From an uncultured Clostridia bacterium (GTDB lineage Bacteria > Bacillota > Clostridia > TANB77 > CAG-508): a DNA stretch of 64,000 nt. The translations under genes were made by a program, and so were the position numbers. Below are positions 15,491-37,120 of the stretch, in pieces. Below the pieces are notes generated by a model, which saw only the letters and a list, made by a program, of their open reading frames with translations, had not been told where the DNA came from and ran no database searches. The stretch spans positions 60-64,059 of the forward strand of contig CAKOVP010000001.1 in the NCBI GenBank assembly GCA_934122035.1, read 5' to 3'. Position 1 is the stretch's first letter. Every line of letters starts with the position of its first letter.

Positions 15491-15721
15491 GTTTATTTAT
15501 ATATCGATTTGTTGTTTTATGCAAACTCTGCTCGGTAGTAACGATTTTTCCCATAGCTTTGCTTTGGTTCAAACCGTTTCCTACCTACTCTACAATCTTA
15601 TGTTTCCACCTAAAATTTTCCACATAACGTATTACTATGCTTTAGGTGCATAGTAATCTTTATGTTAATTTCTTGTCATTGAAGTTTTGAGTTCTTATTT
15701 AGAACCCATCGCTTCCATATC

Positions 15722-16921
15722 TCATGGTATCAAGTATAAAGTAGGGCGAGAACCATTGCCGCCGCCGATGCCGGTAGGATTGATGATGACACAAGCAGAA
15801 GCCGGATAGTAAGAACCATTGCCGCGGCCTCCTCTGAAAGCTCTGCTGCTGACTTCGGCGCCGGGGAGGCTGCCCGCTTCTTGGGTCCATTCCCAATAAT
15901 TTCCAGCAAAGTCATATATATTATTTGCCTTCCAACTTTCACTAAAGCCTGTATTTTGCTCACTTCCATGTCCATCTGCTGTATTGTTCTCGTAGTTTCC
16001 CCAAGAAGTTGAGTCTGTTATGTTAAATCCTGAACTTGCAAGCCATTTACATGTTGCATCCCACTGCAATCCCCATATCATTCTGGTTTTTACTTTTGAA
16101 CCTACAGTTAATGTTTTACAATTTTTATAGTGTTCATACCATGTTATACCTATTTGAGTAGCTCCTGTCTTCTCTCCATTTGCTGTTAACTCATATCTTC
16201 CTATATAAAATCCTTTATACTTCTCTATACTTCTTATCATTTCATCATATTCACTTACCATTGTCTCTGCCATATTTGCCAGACTACTAAATCCTGCTTT
16301 TTCTGCATTTGTGTCATTATCATATTCAGTTTCTATATCTGGCTCTCTAAAATCTGTGCTTCCCGGTAATCCTCTTGTATACCCACTTATTATTTCTGAA
16401 TTTGTATACTTTGTAGTTTTTACTCCTGTAGTTCCTGAAAGTGCTATTCCTTCTGTTACGGTTGTATATAAACTACTTGGTGTTTCTACTGGTACCCACA
16501 CCCATTGGTTTCCAGATAAATCTCTTCTTACATTTTCTTTTCCTTTATCTAATTCTTTATCTGCTACATTATCTGAAATTACTATTCCTTTTGCTTTTGT
16601 TCCTCCCACGTAATAGTAGCCTTCTGGTATTACTACATTTTCTACCGTTGTTTGTGAACTTCCAGAATTTCCTCCATTTCCAGAGTCTGTTTTATTTACA
16701 TAATTTGATAATTCTTGTTCTAAACTATTCATTGACTTTTCAGTATTTATTCTTGCTTGTTCTGTTTTGTCTCTTGCCTCCTGTGCTTTTGTTATTATTC
16801 CGTTTTCTCCTAATACTAAGTTAAGGCTTATTCCTGCTAGTATTAATAAAACAACTATTGTAACTACAAGAGCTACAAGCGTTATACCTCTGTTTCCTTT
16901 CATAAATTTTTTCTTTTTCAT
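15722..16921 (-). CDS. pilin-like N-terminal helix protein with C-terminal FGE-sulfatase (SUMF1)-type domain
   Basis: N-terminus 'KGNRGITLVALVVTIVVLLILAGISL' is class-III-signal/pilin-like without Glu+5. C-terminus has 'GNYWEWT', 'RAFRGG' and the 'GFYIGRYE' block typical of the FGE/SUMF1 fold. It is a paralog of 30553..32289. The 3' 170 bp are anomalously GC-rich. Confidence 0.6.
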   Translation of the reverse strand: MKKKKFMKGNRGITLVALVVTIVVLLILAGISLNLVLGENGIITKAQEARDKTEQARINTEKSMNSLEQELSNYVNKTDSGNGGNSGSSQTTVENVVIPEGYYYVGGTKAKGIVISDNVADKELDKGKENVRRDLSGNQWVWVPVETPSSLYTTVTEGIALSGTTGVKTTKYTNSEIISGYTRGLPGSTDFREPDIETEYDNDTNAEKAGFSSLANMAETMVSEYDEMIRSIEKYKGFYIGRYELTANGEKTGATQIGITWYEHYKNCKTLTVGSKVKTRMIWGLQWDATCKWLASSGFNITDSTSWGNYENNTADGHGSEQNTGFSESWKANNIYDFAGNYWEWTQEAGSLPGAEVSSRAFRGGRGNGSYYPASACVIINPTGIGGGNGSRPTLYLIP

Positions 16922-16950
16922 TTTTTTGTTTTTTCCTCCTTCTACTTTTG

Positions 16951-30552: not shown

Positions 30553-32289
30553 TTATAAAAATAAAGCAATTCTGAAACCAGTACTATCATTTGCACTATC
30601 AGAAGTATAACCTCGTGAATTAGCAGATGTTCGACCAGAAATTCCTCCATAACTGCCTCCTCTTGAGACAATTTTTGAAGTATCAGAATATTTTTCAGTT
30701 GTCATTTCTGCTACATTTCCAGCAATGTCATAAATATTTTTTATTACACTAGAACAGCCAGTTGTAACTAATATTGATCTACTCACCATTTTTCCTGCCT
30801 CGTTGCCTGAAAAGTCAATATATCCAACATAAGTGTTATAAAAATTACCAGGCATCTGTCTCCACTCAGTATAAGAAATGCCTTCATTTTTTGGTATAAA
30901 TGTCATCATTGCATCCCAAGCATAACTACTTGGCAATTTAAAATTTAATTCATTCCCATGTTTTATTTTAAAACTTTTTACTAATTCTTGTGCTTGTGCC
31001 AATGTTACATAATTATATGGTGCTTGTCCTCTTTTTATTGTTACAGTGTTAGTTGTTGAAGAATTTTCATCTCTATAGTTTTTTGACTCTGTACTCTCTT
31101 TATCTCCAGCTTCATACCTTCCAAGGTAAAATCCTTTATACATGTCTACACTATTTTTTTCATCATCTGGTAACTTCTCTGTAAAATATTTTGTATTTGA
31201 ACTACTAAAATTTATTTTTTCAGAATTTGTCTCTGTATCTATTTCACCAGTTGCAACCTGAGAACCACTAGCAACTCTTTTATAGTCTTTTATATCATCT
31301 ACAGGTATCCAAACAAATTGATTGCCTACTAAATCAGTACCAACACTAGTAGCTCCACTATATTTATTTTCATCCTCTTTTTCATCCGAAATTATTAGCC
31401 CCCATTTTCTTGTTCCTCCAACATAGTAAAATCCATCTGGTATTATTACTCCATCTATCATATTGTCCACAATATATACGCCTTTTCCAAATGTTACGTC
31501 TGTTATTGCGCCTTCTTCTCTTCCATCTGCTTGTTGTCCTGATATATTAACAGCTATTTTATCTCCTGCTGAAAGTCCACTATCTGCTGATATTGTGTAA
31601 CTTGCTGTTCCTATTGTACCATTCCAAGTAACTGTAACTTCCGTATTATTTATTTTTACTGTAGGTGTTTGAGTTAGTTCATAGTTTGTTATTATTCTTA
31701 ATGTTACCTTATCTCCAAGTGTAGCTTTGTTCTTATTAGATCCATTGCTTTGCATTGTAACAGATGCAACTATGGGAAGATCTGTTTTTTTATAATAATT
31801 TCCAGCAACAAAGTCATCTGTTAAAGTATAATATGTTATTCCATTTATTGTAATTCCTTTTACATAGTATACTGTTAAACTAACATCATCAACAACATAC
31901 AAATCAGTTGTTGTATAATTTTTTTGTTTATTTCCTTCGCCATTATTTAATTCAACGTCTAGTAAGTCTGTTTTTATTGGATAATAGTTGCCTCCATCGT
32001 TTACGTTTTTCATATCTGAGCTTATATTTAAAGCTATTTTAGTACTAGTATCTATTGGTAATGTTCCATTATTCAAATAATATACTTTTACTTCTTCTGT
32101 TAGAGTTACTATATCTTCTTTTACTTCATTAAATCTTTTTAATTCTGTGCTAGTCGATAAACTTGATGTTATAGATATTACCAGAATCATCATTACAACT
32201 ATTGTAACAACTAAAGAAATTAATGTTACACCTTTTTCGCTTTTTAGGTTTTTATGCATCTCTAATCGCATTCCTCCTTCTAGGCACAA
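30553..32289 (-). CDS. pilin-like N-terminal helix protein with Ig-like domain and C-terminal FGE-sulfatase (SUMF1)-type domain
   Basis: N-terminus 'KGVTLISLVVTIVVMMILVISI'. C-terminus has 'FKLPSSYAWDAMM', 'GNVAEMT', 'SRGGSYGG' and 'GFRIALFL', which are hallmark FGE-fold motifs. The probable start is the Met at 32259, giving MHKNLK. Confidence 0.65.
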   Translation of the reverse strand: MCLEGGMRLEMHKNLKSEKGVTLISLVVTIVVMMILVISITSSLSTSTELKRFNEVKEDIVTLTEEVKVYYLNNGTLPIDTSTKIALNISSDMKNVNDGGNYYPIKTDLLDVELNNGEGNKQKNYTTTDLYVVDDVSLTVYYVKGITINGITYYTLTDDFVAGNYYKKTDLPIVASVTMQSNGSNKNKATLGDKVTLRIITNYELTQTPTVKINNTEVTVTWNGTIGTASYTISADSGLSAGDKIAVNISGQQADGREEGAITDVTFGKGVYIVDNMIDGVIIPDGFYYVGGTRKWGLIISDEKEDENKYSGATSVGTDLVGNQFVWIPVDDIKDYKRVASGSQVATGEIDTETNSEKINFSSSNTKYFTEKLPDDEKNSVDMYKGFYLGRYEAGDKESTESKNYRDENSSTTNTVTIKRGQAPYNYVTLAQAQELVKSFKIKHGNELNFKLPSSYAWDAMMTFIPKNEGISYTEWRQMPGNFYNTYVGYIDFSGNEAGKMVSRSILVTTGCSSVIKNIYDIAGNVAEMTTEKYSDTSKIVSRGGSYGGISGRTSANSRGYTSDSANDSTGFRIALFL

Positions 32290-32532
32290 ATAAGGTTGAT
32301 AAATTTAATTATATTTCAACCTCTTAGCCTTTCTTCTGTATACATTTTTCTTTATAATATCATACCATTGGTGTAGTTTCAATAAATAAATTAATTTGTA
32401 ATAAATTTGTAATTTTTTAATTTTGTTGCTTTTGGCCATGGATAATTTCTAAATTATCTTGAAAAAAAAATTTTGCTGTGTTAGTATGTAATTAATATTA
32501 TTTAACAATATTTTATAAGTTAGGAGAAAAAA

Positions 32533-33030
32533 GTGAGAAAAGATAGTAAAATAAGTGGAATAACTTTAATATCCTTAGCTGTGACTATTAGTGTATTAAT
32601 TATTTTATCTGGAGTAACAATAAGTAATTTATTGGGAGAGGATGGTATATTAGAAAAATCAAATCATCAAAAAGAAAAGAGTATGGTAACAATATATAAA
32701 AACCGTATAGAAACAGTAATAAATGAAAGTAAATTAAAATATAGTACAGATAATTTAAGCCTCGCAGAATTAAATGTTGAATTTAATAATAAAGAATGGG
32801 CAAGTAGCATGAGAATAACAGAGAGTGGAACAGATAAGCTACAAGTAAAAACAAATGATGGTTACTTTTTTTATGTAACTGAAAAGTCTATAGAATATAA
32901 AGGTACAAATCAAGAGGATAAGGAAGAGATTAAAATTCCAACGTCAGATGAAATATCGTACACTCCGAAAGATACAAATTGGCATGTGACTACAGTGAAA
33001 GAAGCAATAGATTATTTGATGAATAACTAA
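32533..33030 (+). CDS. pilin-sized protein with the family's conserved pilin-like N-terminus
   Basis: 165 aa; GTG start with RBS AGGAGA; 'ISGITLISLAVTISVLIILSGVTISNLLGEDG'. Confidence 0.55.
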   Translation: MRKDSKISGITLISLAVTISVLIILSGVTISNLLGEDGILEKSNHQKEKSMVTIYKNRIETVINESKLKYSTDNLSLAELNVEFNNKEWASSMRITESGTDKLQVKTNDGYFFYVTEKSIEYKGTNQEDKEEIKIPTSDEISYTPKDTNWHVTTVKEAIDYLMNN

Positions 33031-33054
33031 AATGTGTGAAAGGAAGTAATAAAA

Positions 33055-33579
33055 ATGAGATTTATAAGAAAAAATATTAAATTGATTATAGGGATAATAA
33101 TAGGTATAACTATTACAAGTTGCATAAGTGTATATGCCACATATACATACTTTGCAGATGAAGTAAAATATACTGATAATAAAAGTGTAAAACAAGCGTT
33201 GGATGAATTATATGCAATGAAAAACAGCAATGCAGAATTGGATAACTTAAAAAAACTATTAAATCAAACTAATGCAACTTCGCAAGATATTTTAAATGGG
33301 AAAATAGCATATAGTGGCGGAAATCTAATTACAGGAACATTAAATACAGAAAAAAATTGGACATTAGTAATATCATATAAAATATACTTAGGCTGGAATG
33401 GAAATACAGGATATGGATATAATGAAGGTAAAATTACAGTAAAAAATAAAGATGGAAACAGAACAATAGTTAACAGTGGCGGTTCATTAGCGAGTGCAAC
33501 TGAAAATTGGAATGGAAATTATAGTATAAACTCAAATATTGCAGATGTTAAAATTGAATCGTTTACAATAGATGAATAA
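33055..33579 (+). CDS. hypothetical secreted protein with N-terminal hydrophobic helix (possible minor pilin)
   Basis: 174 aa; N-terminus 'IKLIIGIIIGITITSCISVYA'; RBS AAAGGAAG. Confidence 0.45.
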   Translation: MRFIRKNIKLIIGIIIGITITSCISVYATYTYFADEVKYTDNKSVKQALDELYAMKNSNAELDNLKKLLNQTNATSQDILNGKIAYSGGNLITGTLNTEKNWTLVISYKIYLGWNGNTGYGYNEGKITVKNKDGNRTIVNSGGSLASATENWNGNYSINSNIADVKIESFTIDE

Positions 33580-33624
33580 GATATGAGATATTTGATTTGG
33601 ATATTGTTAGCGAAAGGAGCAAAC

Positions 33625-34017
33625 ATGAATGCAAACGAACCATTAGCATATAGAATGAGTCCTAAAACGCTGGAAGACTATGTGGGACAAGAATAAATTT
33701 TAGGACAAGATAAAATTTTATATAGAACAATAAAGGCAGATAGACTATCTAGCATTATATTATGGGGACCTCCTGGATGCGGAAAAACGTCTCTGGCAAG
33801 GGTTATAAGTAATACTACTAAATATAAATTTACAAAATTGAATGCTGTAACTGCAGGAGTTGGAGACATTAAAAATGCAATTGAGGAAGCTAAAAACCCT
33901 TTTTAAACCCATCTGGAAGATGTATATTATTTATAGATGAAATTCATAGATTTAACAAATTGCAACAAGATGCATTGCTTCCATGTGATCAATTCTGACA
34001 AATTTTGAATTAACTAA
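33625..34017 (+). pseudogene. rarA: recombination factor RarA/MgsA, 5' fragment with in-frame stop, frameshift and truncation
   Basis: Reads 'MNANEPLAYRMSPKTLEDYVGQE*' then 'ILGQDKILY...LWGPPGCGKTSLARVISN' and, in a shifted frame, '[20 protein letters not shown]'. Only about the first 130 of about 420 codons are present. Confidence 0.6.
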
Positions 34018-34588
34018 TTTGTGTAGTTTGTCAATTAATCCTTGTTCTATAAATTTGTCACAGAATTCCATTTCTGCTGAACCTTCACAGTCGGCACATG
34101 TTATTATAGGAGTATTAACATATACATATCCATTGTTTTGAAAATACTCGTGTATTGCAAATGCTGCAACACTTCTAATTCTAAATACTGCATTAAAAGT
34201 ATTTGTTCTTGGACGCAAATGTGCAACAGTTCTTAAATATTCAAAAGAATGTCTTTTCTTTTGTAATGGATAATCTGAATCTGCTAAATTAAATATTTCT
34301 ACACTATCTGCATGAATTTCGAATGGTTGCTTTGCATTCTCCGTTTTTACAACTTTTCCAGTTACTATAATAGATGAACTGATTGTTAATTTACGAACTT
34401 CTTCAAAATTTGCTAATTTATCGTTGAAAACTATTTGCAAATTATTGAAAAAAAGAGCCCTCATTTAATTCTATAAATCCAAAAACTTTTGAATCTCTAA
34501 CTGTTTTAACCCAGCCAGCAACTTCAACAGTTTTGTCAATGTAATTTTCTGTGTTACGATATAAATCTTTAATTGTTACTTTCTCCAT
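33952..34588 (-). pseudogene. asnS: asparaginyl-tRNA synthetase, 5' fragment (frameshifted at a T7 run, truncated)
   Basis: '[47 protein letters not shown]' plus, after a frameshift, 'NNLQIVFN...[22 protein letters not shown]...YVNTPIIT' (OB fold and start of the class II core). Homology ends near 34060, where it meets the rarA fragment. Confidence 0.6.
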
Positions 34589-34852
34589 AAGAAACGCTCC
34601 TATCTCTATTAACATAAGGAAATTATACGCGCAAATGGCAAAAAAATAAAGGAAAAAAGAAATCGAATGTGAAAATTATGAATAAACATTGAAATTTTGT
34701 TGCTTTTTTGCTTGACTTTTAAGCTGTTTTGCTATAGAATAGTATAGCGTAATTAGAGTATGACCATATATAAAAACTTCTCCCCGGTAGTTTTTATAAT
34801 GTGATTTCATATATATTAAAATATTTATATTGAATGGAGGGTATTTTTTACC

Positions 34853-35287
34853 ATGAATAATACAACATATAGTATTAAAAAAAGTGAAATTGAAAGAAAA
34901 TGGTATATAATCGATGCTGCTAACAAACCATTAGGAAGAGTTGCTGCAGAAGCTGCAAAACTTTTAAGAGGAAAACATAAACCTACTTATACTCCAAATA
35001 TGGATGCAGGAGATCACGTTATTATCATAAACTGCTCAGAAGTTGTTTTAACAGGAAATAAAGCAACACAAAAAATTTATAGACATCATTCTTCATACAT
35101 TGGTGGTATGAAAGAAATACAAGCAAAAGATATGCTTGCAAACAAACCAGAAAAAATGATGACTTTAGCTGTTACAGGTATGCTTCCTCACAACAGTTTA
35201 GGAAGACAAATGGCTAAAAAATTAAGAGTATACGCTGGAGCTGAGCATGAAAATATGGCTCAAAAACCAGAAGTATGGAATTTTTAA
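34853..35287 (+). CDS. rplM: 50S ribosomal protein L13
   Basis: 144 aa; strong L13 similarity with GGAGGG RBS. Confidence 0.95.
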
Positions 35288-35306
35288 TTAGGAGGGAGAA
35301 ATAAAA

Positions 35307-35717
35307 ATGCCTAGAACAAAAAAGGAACAAGAAGTTTTTAATGGTACTGGAAGAAGAAAAAGTTCAGTTGCTAGAGTTAGAATAATGAGTGGAAAAGGAA
35401 ATATCACAGTTAATGGAAAATCATTAGATGAATATTTCGGAGAAGAAACTCTAAAGGTTATTGTTAGACAACCTTTAACAGCTACAAATACTTTAGATAA
35501 ATTTGATGTTATTGCTACAGTAAAAGGTGGCGGTTTCTCAGGTCAAGCAGGAGCTGTTCGTCATGGTATAGCAAGAGCTTTAAATGAAGCTAACAGAGAA
35601 GAATATAGACCAACTTTAAAAGCAAGCGGATTCTTAACAAGAGATTCTCGTAAGAAGGAAAGAAAGAAATATGGTCTTAAGAAAGCTAGAAAAGCTCCAC
35701 AATTCAGCAAGAGATAG
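35307..35717 (+). CDS. rpsI: 30S ribosomal protein S9
   Basis: 136 aa; the C-terminal '...[12 protein letters not shown]' is typical of S9. Confidence 0.95.
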
Positions 35718-35760: not shown

Positions 35761-35986
35761 TCTTTAATTTTAATATTCAGTTTTCTAAAAAATAAAACCA
35801 ACTATATTTCTTTTTTATATATCAAGTTTTTTTATTTCTTTTATGCCTATTTCTCCATTTTTTCCTATCATTGTGTATCTCATATTTTGTATATATTTTT
35901 CTATTTCTTTTATTTTTTCTTTAAATTCATATTCCATTGGATAATTGCTTGTATTAATTAGCTGTATATTATTTATTATTATTCCC

Positions 35987-36736: not shown

Positions 36737-36810
36737 TAAATATTATTTAACAAATAAAATTATTATTCTTTTTTAAATACACTATTTTTTACATCACCTG
36801 TCTAAAGAAA

Positions 36811-37090
36811 CTAATACATTGGAAAAAAATATTCAAGTCAATAACTCGAATAACTGCTTGCAAAATTGATGCTTCATAATTTTGTAAGTAGTTTGAAGAT
36901 GTTTTGACGCAGAATATTCTTTTTACAACTGTATTAGTTTCTTGTTACTCATCTTAAATAAAAGCTAATACATTGAAAAAAATATTCAAGTCAATAACTC
37001 GAATAACTGCTTGCAAAATTGATGCTTTATAATTTTGTAAGCAGTTTGAAGATGTTTTGACGCAGAATATTCTTTTTACAACTGTATTAG
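36811..37090. repeat. tandem direct repeat: two about 126-bp units (36811-36937, 36965-37090) with 8-9 bp terminal inverted repeats and an internal hairpin
   Basis: Units are about 96% identical. Each begins CTAATACA and ends TGTATTAG, and contains AACTGCTTGCAAAATT...AATTTTGTAAGYAGTT (a 16-bp imperfect stem). Confidence 0.85.
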
Positions 37091-37120
37091 CTTTTTAATA
37101 TTCATTATAAATAATTTAAA

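What the first reader, a model, noticed from the sequence alone, without database searches (positions are those of the whole stretch)
33625..34588. Tail-to-tail fusion of 5' fragments of rarA and asnS: a rearrangement breakpoint next to the pilin-like locus
On the plus strand there is roughly the first third of rarA. It carries a premature TAA after VGQE and a frameshift in a T-run, and loses homology at LLP|CDQF. On the minus strand there is roughly the first third of asnS, with a frameshift at a T7 run; its homology ends near 34060, after which the ORF continues with unrelated sequence. The two remnants meet in a region of about 60 bp. Two unrelated genes, each truncated after its 5' third and abutting in convergent orientation, is what an inversion or deletion with breakpoints inside both genes would produce. 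The reciprocal junction (asnS 3' / rarA 3') may exist elsewhere. The junction is immediately downstream of the divergent pilin-like gene pair at 30553-33579, so acquisition or movement of that locus may have caused it. asnS is normally essential, which implies a second copy or the indirect Asn-tRNA pathway.
Basis: seen in the sequence. Interest (0 to 1): 0.55.

Follow-up and report, generated by a model that had tools for sequence, protein, structure and literature searches.

The report
Leftover rarA–asnS gene-fragment scar
Two dead gene stubs, the front ends of rarA and asnS, joined back-to-back beside rplM are a real, inherited rearrangement scar carried by many strains of an uncultured human-gut Clostridia species that keeps full-length copies of both genes elsewhere, so it is ordinary genomic debris that still appears to exchange sequence with the live genes.

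Summary
The fusion is real. The first ~360 nt of rarA (+ strand) are joined directly at 33984-33986 to an asnS remnant (- strand). The "unrelated" ORF tail is still asnS: codons 1-173, an in-frame 327-nt deletion, then codons 283-310. There is no 60-bp spacer. The identical joint occurs in nine independent gut metagenome assemblies, so it is not a misassembly. In most of them the rarA stub is still an open frame. This window's strain has added a TAA and two homopolymer frameshifts.

The locus is polymorphic. Other strains lack a 2,260-bp unit (two pilin-like genes plus both stubs) bounded by a 15-bp direct repeat. Others show intact rarA or intact asnS at the same flanks.

Full-length rarA and asnS exist in the species elsewhere: ruvA-rarA, aspS-p490|asnS, or rarA|asnS head-to-head. 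Different strains' asnS stubs carry different patches of intact-gene alleles. The "intact here" contigs are mosaics nested within stub-bearing strains.

Best reading: a non-functional, duplicated breakpoint scar made by microhomology joining, now decaying and recombining with the live copies. The reciprocal-inversion, gene-loss and pilin-causation parts are not supported. Ordinary; interest is low to moderate.

The parts
32419..32433 (.). Left copy of the exact 15-bp direct repeat AATTTTGTTGCTTTT. It is the left boundary of the 2,260-bp unit missing from 'short-type' strains.
   Evidence: short-type junction present in nine samples; these are the only two exact copies in the window; such repeats are rare.
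32533..33030 (+). 165-aa gene with a pilin-like N-terminus. It is part of the unit that is present or absent as a block.
   Evidence: No Pfam hit.
33055..33579 (+). 174-aa gene with an N-terminal membrane segment. It lies directly upstream of the rarA stub here, and of an intact rarA in L013/L019/L020.
33583..33984 (+). rarA (RarA/MgsA) 5' remnant. Usual ATG at 33625, in-frame upstream ATG at 33583, codons 1-120. TAA at 33694-33696. One T missing from the run at 33900-33904.
33984..33986 (.). Tail-to-tail joint J1: rarA nt ~+361 joined to asnS nt +930, with one non-parental base (G at 33985), inside a patch of imperfect microhomology (...GCTTC...T.TG...).
   Evidence: The identical 28-mer is present in nine samples.
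33986..34074 (-). asnS remnant, distal piece (AsnRS codons ~283-310).
34069..34075 (.). Joint of the in-frame 327-nt internal deletion in asnS, lying between two GAAATG hexamers.
34075..34588 (-). asnS remnant, proximal piece (codons 1-173: OB-fold anticodon-binding domain and the start of the class II core). Frameshift in the A7 run at 34447-34453.
34589..34693 (-). 105 bp of the asnS 5' region that includes a promoter-like TTGCCA...TATAAT read from the sequence (the scan did not list it). Homology to intact asnS loci stops at 34694.
34693..34707 (.). Right copy of the 15-bp direct repeat. The rplM promoter-like site (34712-34740) and rplM (34853-35287) follow.

Best explanation
The interval is a composite pseudogene, a breakpoint scar. 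It holds the ribosome-binding site and first ~360 nt of rarA, joined tail-to-tail to an asnS remnant. The joint was made by illegitimate recombination within a patch of imperfect microhomology. The asnS remnant keeps 105 bp of its own upstream region and has lost codons 174-282 by a second small deletion between GAAATG repeats.

SHOWN: the joint is heritable and shared by many strains of an uncultured human-gut Clostridia species (closest named record Clostridium sp. CAG:245). Neither stub can make a working enzyme. The stubs are decaying at strain level. Full-length rarA and asnS exist in the same species at other places.

INFERRED, the favoured reading: the stubs are extra, duplicated copies, and stub-bearing genomes keep the working genes. 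The joint is of the kind formed at the novel junction of a small duplication, circle or template switch spanning the 5' ends of two divergently transcribed neighbours. That is how rarA and asnS lie in about a third of the contigs read that carry the species' commonest AsnRS. One break in the intergenic copy and one upstream of the rplM promoter would then have lodged the joint between the 174-aa gene and rplM.

The stubs have no function of their own. Because they share 360-620 bp with the live genes, they act as ectopic homology. They receive gene-conversion patches. They appear to mediate large rearrangements that put an intact rarA or asnS at this locus. They are repeatedly lost with their two neighbouring genes through a 2,260-bp deletion between 15-bp direct repeats.
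For: Identity of the fragments.

Same joint in independent assemblies: the identical 28-nt joint occurs in nine samples assembled with different programs. The rarA frame is open across the joint in seven of the nine. The asnS frame is open in two. This means the TAA and the rarA frameshift arose later than the joint.

Intact genes in the species: AsnRS P0121 is on 990 contigs. Of the 24 contigs read, 8 have it as the rarA(-)|asnS(+) divergent pair and 16 as aspS-p490|asnS. rarA is also found as ruvA-rarA-Rsm22.

The stub is nearly identical to a live allele: the rarA stub differs from the intact ruvA-linked allele of L135 at 3 sites shared by the stub-bearing strains, in 360 nt, plus strain-specific lesions. 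Its differences from the other allele class are 15 synonymous and 3-4 non-synonymous.

Sequence exchange: the asnS stubs of L008 and L017 carry two different patches of intact-gene alleles that remove the frameshift.

Mosaic contigs: L005 (intact asnS next to rplM) is 100.000% identical over 9,200 nt to the head-to-head contig L023 on one side. On the other side it has 0 differences in 4,844 aligned nt from the stub-bearing contigs L007/L016/L017, with the switch inside the shared 76 nt. L019 (intact rarA after the 174-aa gene) is 100% identical over 2,700 nt to the stub-bearing L006/L008/L016/L017 and switches allele inside the stub-homologous region.

Polarity: in the flank tree the 'intact here' form is nested within stub-bearing strains, so it is derived.

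Short form: it equals the window minus 32434-34693, at the 15-bp repeat.
Against: No single genome or long contig was obtained that shows both the stubs and the intact genes. Exact-protein look-ups with RplM, RpsI, DUF5665 and TIM never reached the 1.56-Mb contig that carries asnS.

The 'intact here' contigs are SPAdes contigs or a scaffold with an N gap in rarA. Their switch points are the first identical stretches longer than 55 nt (62 and 76 nt). Repeat-induced chimeric assembly therefore cannot be excluded. Even so, stub and intact gene would have to co-occur in those samples.

The stub alleles are closer to the ruvA-linked rarA and to the aspS-linked asnS alleles than to those of the head-to-head pair: about 95% versus 97-99%. 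This weakens the specific duplication-of-the-divergent-pair origin.

The right 15-bp repeat starts exactly where asnS homology ends. No model tried explains this.
Confidence: 0.7

Rival explanations
1. Cut-type inversion. An ancestor had intact rarA after the 174-aa gene and intact asnS in front of rplM. A two-break inversion with both breaks inside the genes produced this joint and a reciprocal rarA-3'/asnS-3' joint elsewhere. Stub-bearing strains then have no working rarA or asnS and make Asn-tRNA by the indirect (GatCAB) route.
For: It needs only one simple event and explains both outer flanks. Contigs with intact rarA (L013, L019, L020) and intact asnS (L005) at exactly these flanks exist. 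L020's intact rarA carries the stub allele up to the breakpoint. rarA appears dispensable: it is degraded in L231 and in relatives.
Against: The intact-here contigs are nested within, and identical in their flanks to, one sub-clade of stub-bearing strains. The joint is shared by deeper clades, so the intact form is the derived one. Their gene bodies are identical to strains with the head-to-head pair, which a genome without intact copies could not supply by homologous recombination. Different stubs carry different intact-allele patches. Stub-bearing and short forms make up about 90% of contigs at this locus, yet intact AsnRS is far more abundant in the species. asnS is normally essential (established knowledge).
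Confidence: 0.15
2. The whole 2,260-bp unit (165-aa gene, 174-aa gene, both stubs) is an insertion into an ancestral 'short' site. It would have entered by a circle integrating at the 15-mer or by a staggered cut with a 15-bp target duplication. The short form is then ancestral rather than a deletion.
For: Exact 15-bp direct repeats lie at both ends. The right copy abuts the end of asnS homology. Such repeats are rare (15 clusters in 64 kb) and this 15-mer occurs nowhere else in the window.
Against: The unit has no transposase, integrase or terminal inverted repeats. The 165-aa and 57x-aa pilin-like genes are a divergent pair with a paralogous locus elsewhere in the window, so they look native. 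The donor arrangement this needs, asnS(-)|165-174-rarA(+), was not seen among 23 contigs carrying the 174-aa protein. Short and stub-bearing strains are interspersed in the flank tree, which fits recurrent loss.
Confidence: 0.2
3. A simple deletion removed the 3' parts of two originally convergent, adjacent genes.
For: It would give a tail-to-tail fusion in one step.
Against: In all 100+ loci examined, rarA is followed by an Rsm22-like gene and asnS by spoU-mfd. The two are never convergent neighbours.
Confidence: 0.02
4. Assembly chimera or sequencing-error artefact of two intact genes.
For: Two of the lesions are in homopolymer runs.
Against: The same joint is present in nine samples assembled with MEGAHIT, SPAdes and other pipelines. 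The truncations are structural, not homopolymer errors. The TAA is a substitution shared by contigs from two further samples, L002 and L122.
Confidence: 0.01
5. The stubs are kept because they are expressed as useful truncated proteins: a free OB-fold tRNA-binding domain and a P-loop fragment.
For: Both keep their start regions. The asnS stub also keeps a promoter-like sequence, and the frames are open in several strains. Few non-synonymous differences from live alleles.
Against: Independent stops and frameshifts occur in several strains. The whole unit is absent from about half of the strains. The low dN/dS is explained by allelic origin and conversion from live genes. The asnS stub has 5 private non-synonymous changes, while live alleles have none among 12 differences.
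Confidence: 0.03

Closest known systems
Gene remnants (pseudogene fragments) left at chromosomal rearrangement joints in bacterial genomes
   Same: Truncated 5' parts of housekeeping genes, no longer functional, mark where DNA was broken and rejoined. They decay by point mutations and small deletions.
   Different: No insertion sequence or rRNA operon lies at the joint. The joining used a patch of imperfect microhomology. The scar is a population polymorphism seen in four states, and working copies persist elsewhere.
Novel join points of tandem duplications or excised circles, and template-switch (microhomology-mediated) copy events. Known from Salmonella and E. coli duplication studies (own knowledge, not checked here).
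   Same: A tail-to-tail joint of the 5' parts of two divergently transcribed neighbours is what the new junction of a duplication spanning their shared promoter region looks like. Microhomology at both small joints.
   Different: The joint is not next to the intact pair. It lies at a distant site beside rplM, so further steps are needed. The stub alleles are not those of the head-to-head pairs sampled.
Inversions with duplicated ends from staggered breaks (Ranz et al. 2007, PMC1885836)
   Same: This model predicts a fragment pair at one end and intact genes side by side at the other end of an inversion. That is the configuration seen here.
   Different: Tested and not met in detail. The intact head-to-head pair keeps asnS upstream bases -106 to -135, shared with the ancestral aspS-linked arrangement. 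The copy beside rplM lacks them.
Large inversions by homologous recombination between inverted repeats (rRNA operons, insertion sequences) that give alternative chromosome arrangements within a species (own knowledge)
   Same: Short inverted homologies appear to swap the flanks of rarA and asnS between two architectures.
   Different: The repeats here are gene stubs of 360-620 bp at 95-99% identity. Reality of the inverted form rests on short-read contigs only.

Membership tests
RarA/MgsA AAA+ ATPase (functional member) | AAA+ module with Walker A and Walker B motifs | tested here: met
   Residues 44-114 match Pfam AAA (E=9e-15) and RuvB_N. GPPGCGKT and FIDEIH motifs are present.
RarA/MgsA AAA+ ATPase (functional member) | AAA lid (AAA_assoc_2, PF16193) and MgsA_C (PF12002) domains, with a total length of about 414-440 aa | tested here: not met
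   The sequence ends at codon 120. Intact relatives of 414/428 aa carry both domains. The window copy also has a TAA and a frameshift.
Asparagine--tRNA ligase (class IIb, functional member) | N-terminal OB-fold anticodon-binding domain (PF01336) | tested here: met
   Residues 21-98, E=2e-12. NCBIfam asnS equivalog positions 1-171.
Asparagine--tRNA ligase (class IIb, functional member) | Complete class II catalytic core (PF00152, ~308 profile positions) and a length of ~462 aa | tested here: not met
   Only profile positions 9-59 are matched. Codons 174-282 and 311-462 are absent. Scores are below the curated cut-off (205 against 414 bits).
Pseudogene / duplicated gene remnant | Truncated or disrupted frame, with a full-length homologue of the same allele class in the same species | tested here: met
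   Co-residence in one genome is inferred, not shown.
Transposable element or integrative cassette (for the 2,260-bp unit) | Flanking direct repeats | tested here: met
   Exact 15-bp repeats at 32419-32433 and 34693-34707.
Transposable element or integrative cassette (for the 2,260-bp unit) | Transposase or recombinase gene, or terminal inverted repeats | tested here: not met
   The only ORFs are the 165- and 174-aa proteins without Pfam hits, plus the two stubs. No terminal inverted repeats are listed.
Staggered-break inversion with duplicated ends | Each duplicated segment has the same outer boundary in both copies | tested here: not met
   The rarA side agrees (about -16). On the asnS side, the copy beside rplM stops at -105, while the intact pair continues to about -135 with ancestral sequence.
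cis-regulatory RNA upstream of asnS or rplM (T-box, L13 leader) | Match to an Rfam model | tested here: not met
   No hit with E<=0.1 in 32200-35400.

The most novel reading that the evidence does not exclude
The two stubs act as portable homology that lets the chromosome flip between two architectures: stubs beside rplM with rarA and asnS intact elsewhere, or intact rarA and asnS flanking the 174-aa gene and rplM. This would be homologous recombination over a very large segment, recurring in natural gut populations. It could have consequences for gene orientation relative to replication and for expression of asnS and rplM-rpsI.
Probability: 0.2. Interest if true: 0.55.

Novelty: new member of a known kind. 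Interest (0 to 1): 0.3.

Why it matters
Annotation: the region should be labelled as two pseudogene fragments, not as hypothetical ORFs of 37, 170 and 57 aa. It should not be read as loss of asnS or rarA from the organism.

Assembly of this uncultured gut clade: CAG-245 belongs to TANB77, a clade of clinical interest for its pilin-like proteins (PMC11680825). The stubs are repeats of live genes lying beside a hypervariable pilin-like locus. This helps explain why contigs break or may be mis-joined here.

Biology: it is a well-resolved natural example of a breakpoint scar. The same illegitimate joint persists across strains, decays, is patched by gene conversion, is deleted repeatedly, and may seed further large rearrangements. 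None of these processes is new in kind.

Tried and rejected
1. Misassembly: rejected by recurrence of the joint.
2. 'Unrelated sequence' after 34060: rejected, it is asnS codons 283-310.
3. Deletion between convergent neighbours: rejected on synteny.
4. Staggered-break inversion from the 'intact here' arrangement: rejected. The head-to-head pair keeps ancestral asnS upstream bases -106 to -135 that the rplM-linked copy lacks.
5. Treating the 12% divergence of the distal asnS piece as great age: rejected, it matches another live allele at 96.8%.
6. Treating the low dN/dS of the stubs as selection on them: rejected in favour of allelic origin and conversion.
7. The 15-mer as a general motif: rejected. 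The only two exact copies are the boundary pair, and there is no enrichment at up to 2 mismatches.
8. Regulatory RNA in the asnS-rplM spacer: none found.
9. P0007, which looked like a second rarA chimera with a Clp ATPase: it is a ruvA-linked rarA with a 35-bp GC-rich patch, probably an assembly artefact.
10. Contig L161, which starts 6 nt after the rarA breakpoint: judged uninformative (coverage 2x, no k-mer overlap).
11. Attempts to place this locus and the intact asnS on one contig failed. Exact look-ups with RplM, RpsI, DUF5665 and TIM, plus cluster members P0361 and P0375, reached only contigs of at most 146 kb among those shown, or sister species.
12. Full reconstruction of the order of rearrangements: abandoned. 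rarA has at least three upstream contexts and asnS at least three, and synteny around rplM-rpsI differs even between sister species.

Full report
ANATOMY. The window is AT-rich (28.6% G+C) and almost all genes lie on the minus strand. On the plus strand at 33625-33984 lies the start of a RarA/MgsA gene: NCBIfam PRK13341 E=4e-48, Pfam AAA and RuvB_N. An in-frame ATG lies further upstream at 33583. On the minus strand from 34588 lies the start of asnS: NCBIfam PRK03932 E=2e-60, model positions 1-171 of 451. Comparison with other strains confirms three lesions in this copy. They are GAA>TAA at 33694-33696, one T missing from the run at 33900-33904, and one extra base in the A/T run at 34447-34453.

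Two details of the finding are wrong. First, the ORF tail below 34075 is not unrelated sequence. It is AsnRS codons ~283-310 (tblastn 78% identity, E=6e-14; 96.8% nucleotide identity to the asnS alleles of L032/L033). It follows an in-frame 327-nt deletion between two GAAATG hexamers. Second, the remnants do not meet across about 60 bp. rarA-derived sequence runs to 33984 and asnS-derived sequence begins at 33986. One non-parental base lies between them, within a patch where the two parents are partly alike. The asnS remnant keeps 105 bp of its own upstream region, which contains a promoter-like TTGCCA...TATAAT read from the sequence; the scan did not list it.

NOT AN ARTEFACT. Exact-protein look-ups of the neighbouring genes returned many human-gut metagenome contigs. 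The identical 28-nt joint is present in contigs from nine different samples made with different assemblers. In seven of them the rarA stub is an open frame across the joint (138 aa as called). In two the asnS stub is open (211 aa as called). The stop and the frameshift in rarA therefore arose in this strain's lineage after the joint was formed.

A POLYMORPHIC LOCUS. Four states occur at the same flanks.
(a) The window state.
(b) A short state in nine samples, in which 32434-34693 (2,260 bp) is absent. This unit holds the 165-aa gene, the 174-aa gene and both stubs. The junction falls in an exact 15-bp direct repeat, AATTTTGTTGCTTTT, at 32419-32433 and 34693-34707.
(c) Contigs L013, L019 and L020, in which the 174-aa gene is followed by a full-length rarA (428 aa) and then by Rsm22-like, band-7, secG, rnr and pheS genes.
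(d) Contig L005, in which rplM is preceded by a full-length asnS (462 aa) with spoU, mfd and ftsH beyond it.

WHERE THE LIVE GENES ARE. The AsnRS of L005 (P0121) is on 990 contigs. Of the 24 longest read, 8 have rarA(-) and asnS(+) as divergent neighbours 172 bp apart, including a 1.56-Mb contig. The other 16 have aspS(-), a 490-aa gene (-), then asnS(+). The aspS-linked arrangement is also that of the nearest species representatives (Clostridium sp. CAG:245 and two MAGs, AsnRS 98-99%) and of relatives at 83-89%, so it is ancestral. For rarA, a scan of metagenomes shows ruvA-rarA-Rsm22 in the same species (RarA 98%) and in many relatives. That is its ancestral context. Both genes have therefore been moved more than once in this lineage. 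Synteny around rplM-rpsI also differs between sister species.

RELATION OF STUBS TO LIVE GENES. Over 360 nt, the rarA stub differs from the intact ruvA-linked allele of L135 at 3 sites shared by the stub-bearing strains, plus strain-specific lesions. It differs at 19 sites from the allele of the head-to-head pairs, of which 15 are synonymous. The asnS stub is 97% identical to live alleles in its first 519 nt. It has five private non-synonymous changes, whereas two live alleles differ by 12 synonymous and no non-synonymous changes. This indicates modest decay of a copy of a live allele. Strains L008 and L017 carry two different patches of live-gene alleles inside the stub, and each patch removes the frameshift.

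The 'intact here' contigs are mosaics. L005 is 100.000% identical over 9,200 nt to the head-to-head contig L023. On the other side it has 0 differences in 4,844 aligned nt from the stub-bearing contigs L007/L016/L017. The switch lies between asnS +7 and +82. L019 is 100% identical over 2,700 nt to the stub-bearing L006/L008/L016/L017. It switches to the other rarA allele between 33685 and 33746. In a tree of the rplM-side flank, L005 sits inside a clade of stub-bearing strains, and other stub-bearing strains, including the window, branch more deeply. The intact-here form is therefore derived from a stub-bearing genome. Its gene bodies must have come from intact copies. The simplest source is the same genome.

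CAVEAT. These contigs are short-read assemblies: SPAdes contigs, plus one scaffold with an N gap in rarA. Their switch points are the first identical stretches longer than 55 nt. They could therefore be repeat-induced chimeras. Stub and intact gene would still have to be present together in those samples.

ORIGIN. A deletion between convergent neighbours is excluded by synteny. A reciprocal inversion that broke the only copies explains the flanks with one event, but it conflicts with the nesting, the mosaics, the patches and the abundance of intact AsnRS. I give it 0.15. A staggered-break inversion with duplicated ends (PMC1885836) would give exactly this configuration, but it fails on one detail. 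The head-to-head pair keeps asnS upstream bases -106 to -135 shared with the ancestral arrangement, and the rplM-linked copy lacks them.

What remains is a copy-type event. A tail-to-tail joint of the 5' parts of two divergent neighbours is the novel junction of a small duplication, circle or template switch spanning their shared upstream region. One break in the intergenic copy would lose about 51 bp between rarA -16 and asnS -105. Together with one break in front of the rplM promoter, it would place the joint where it is. This part is inference. The stub alleles resemble the ruvA-linked and aspS-linked genes more than the sampled head-to-head pairs, so the source arrangement is uncertain.

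UNEXPLAINED. The right copy of the 15-bp repeat begins at the very base where asnS homology ends. Exact direct repeats of 15 nt or more within 2.5 kb are rare here (15 clusters in 64 kb), and this 15-mer occurs nowhere else in the window. The 2,260-bp unit therefore behaves as a discrete module. Whether the short state is a recurrent deletion, as the interspersed tree suggests, or the ancestral empty site is not settled.

COMPARISON AND VERDICT. Neither stub meets the defining features of a functional RarA or AsnRS (membership table). The unit has direct repeats but no recombinase gene and no inverted ends. The feature is a pseudogene scar of a known kind, well documented at population level. 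The organism belongs to the CAG-245/TANB77 group of uncultured gut Clostridia, judged by the nearest named record and by PMC11680825. Interest is 0.3. The most novel reading still open is that the stubs drive recurrent flipping between two chromosome architectures (probability about 0.2).

Noticed in passing
window 30553-32289 (-), and 15600-16950: The 57x-aa pilin-like gene has a hypervariable 3' half among strains (no match, or 83-97% identity). Its variant forms match a paralogous locus at 15.6-16.9 kb of the window. Many metagenome contigs end inside it.
   Followed up: partly
L004 5713-7669; L013 74-2133; L117 1824-2951: An IS256-family transposase (PF00872, split in two ORFs) lies between ftsY and the 57x gene, or to its left, in some strains. 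In L117 a 375-aa HTH_38 gene, possibly IS30-like, lies upstream of rplM.
   Followed up: no
window ~35807-35837 (L008 4915-6012, L009 3229-4326): Some strains carry a three-gene insertion between rpsI and the 249-aa gene: a SocA_Panacea-domain protein of 153 aa, plus 133-aa and 46-aa ORFs.
   Followed up: no
window 36808-37113: A ~153-bp segment is tandemly duplicated between the 249-aa gene and the GH18 gene. L001, L003 and L005 have a single copy.
   Followed up: partly
window 34853-35717; L129-L134, L215-L230: rplM-rpsI lie on the strand opposite to nearly all other genes of the window. In sister species the same two-gene module sits between infC-rpmI-rplT and yunB-sipL-veg in either orientation. 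Contigs often end just upstream of rplM, which suggests a recurrent rearrangement hot spot.
   Followed up: partly
P0049, P0078, P0083, P0105, P0107 (relatives): RarA homologues of related species are repeatedly called as 177-195-aa ORFs, several ending ...EGLRKL, on long contigs (P0083 on 35 contigs). This could be a recurrent frameshift or pseudogenisation of rarA at one site.
   Followed up: no
L231 1318-2502: A ruvA-linked rarA in which ~100 bp after the Walker B codons are replaced by a 35-bp GC-rich patch encoding a Clp-like TIVGAGSAEGAG. The gene is split into three ORFs. This is probably a chimeric assembly.
   Followed up: partly
L235 and L240 2023-6292 (corresponds to window ~45.7-46.3 kb): In two samples the spoVT-like gene (184 aa in the window's strain) is replaced by a 727-aa ORF joining a large serine recombinase to the SpoVT C-terminal part, preceded by small phage-like ORFs. 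It looks like an intervening element integrated in a sporulation regulator gene.
   Followed up: no
L215 11699-13662: A related species carries MutS_I-domain, bAvd and reverse-transcriptase (RVT_1) genes near rplT, resembling a diversity-generating retroelement.
   Followed up: no
L135, L136, L143 and ~20 further loci: ruvA immediately upstream of rarA on the same strand is conserved across many relatives. In L154, asnS is divergent from ruvA-rarA.
   Followed up: partly
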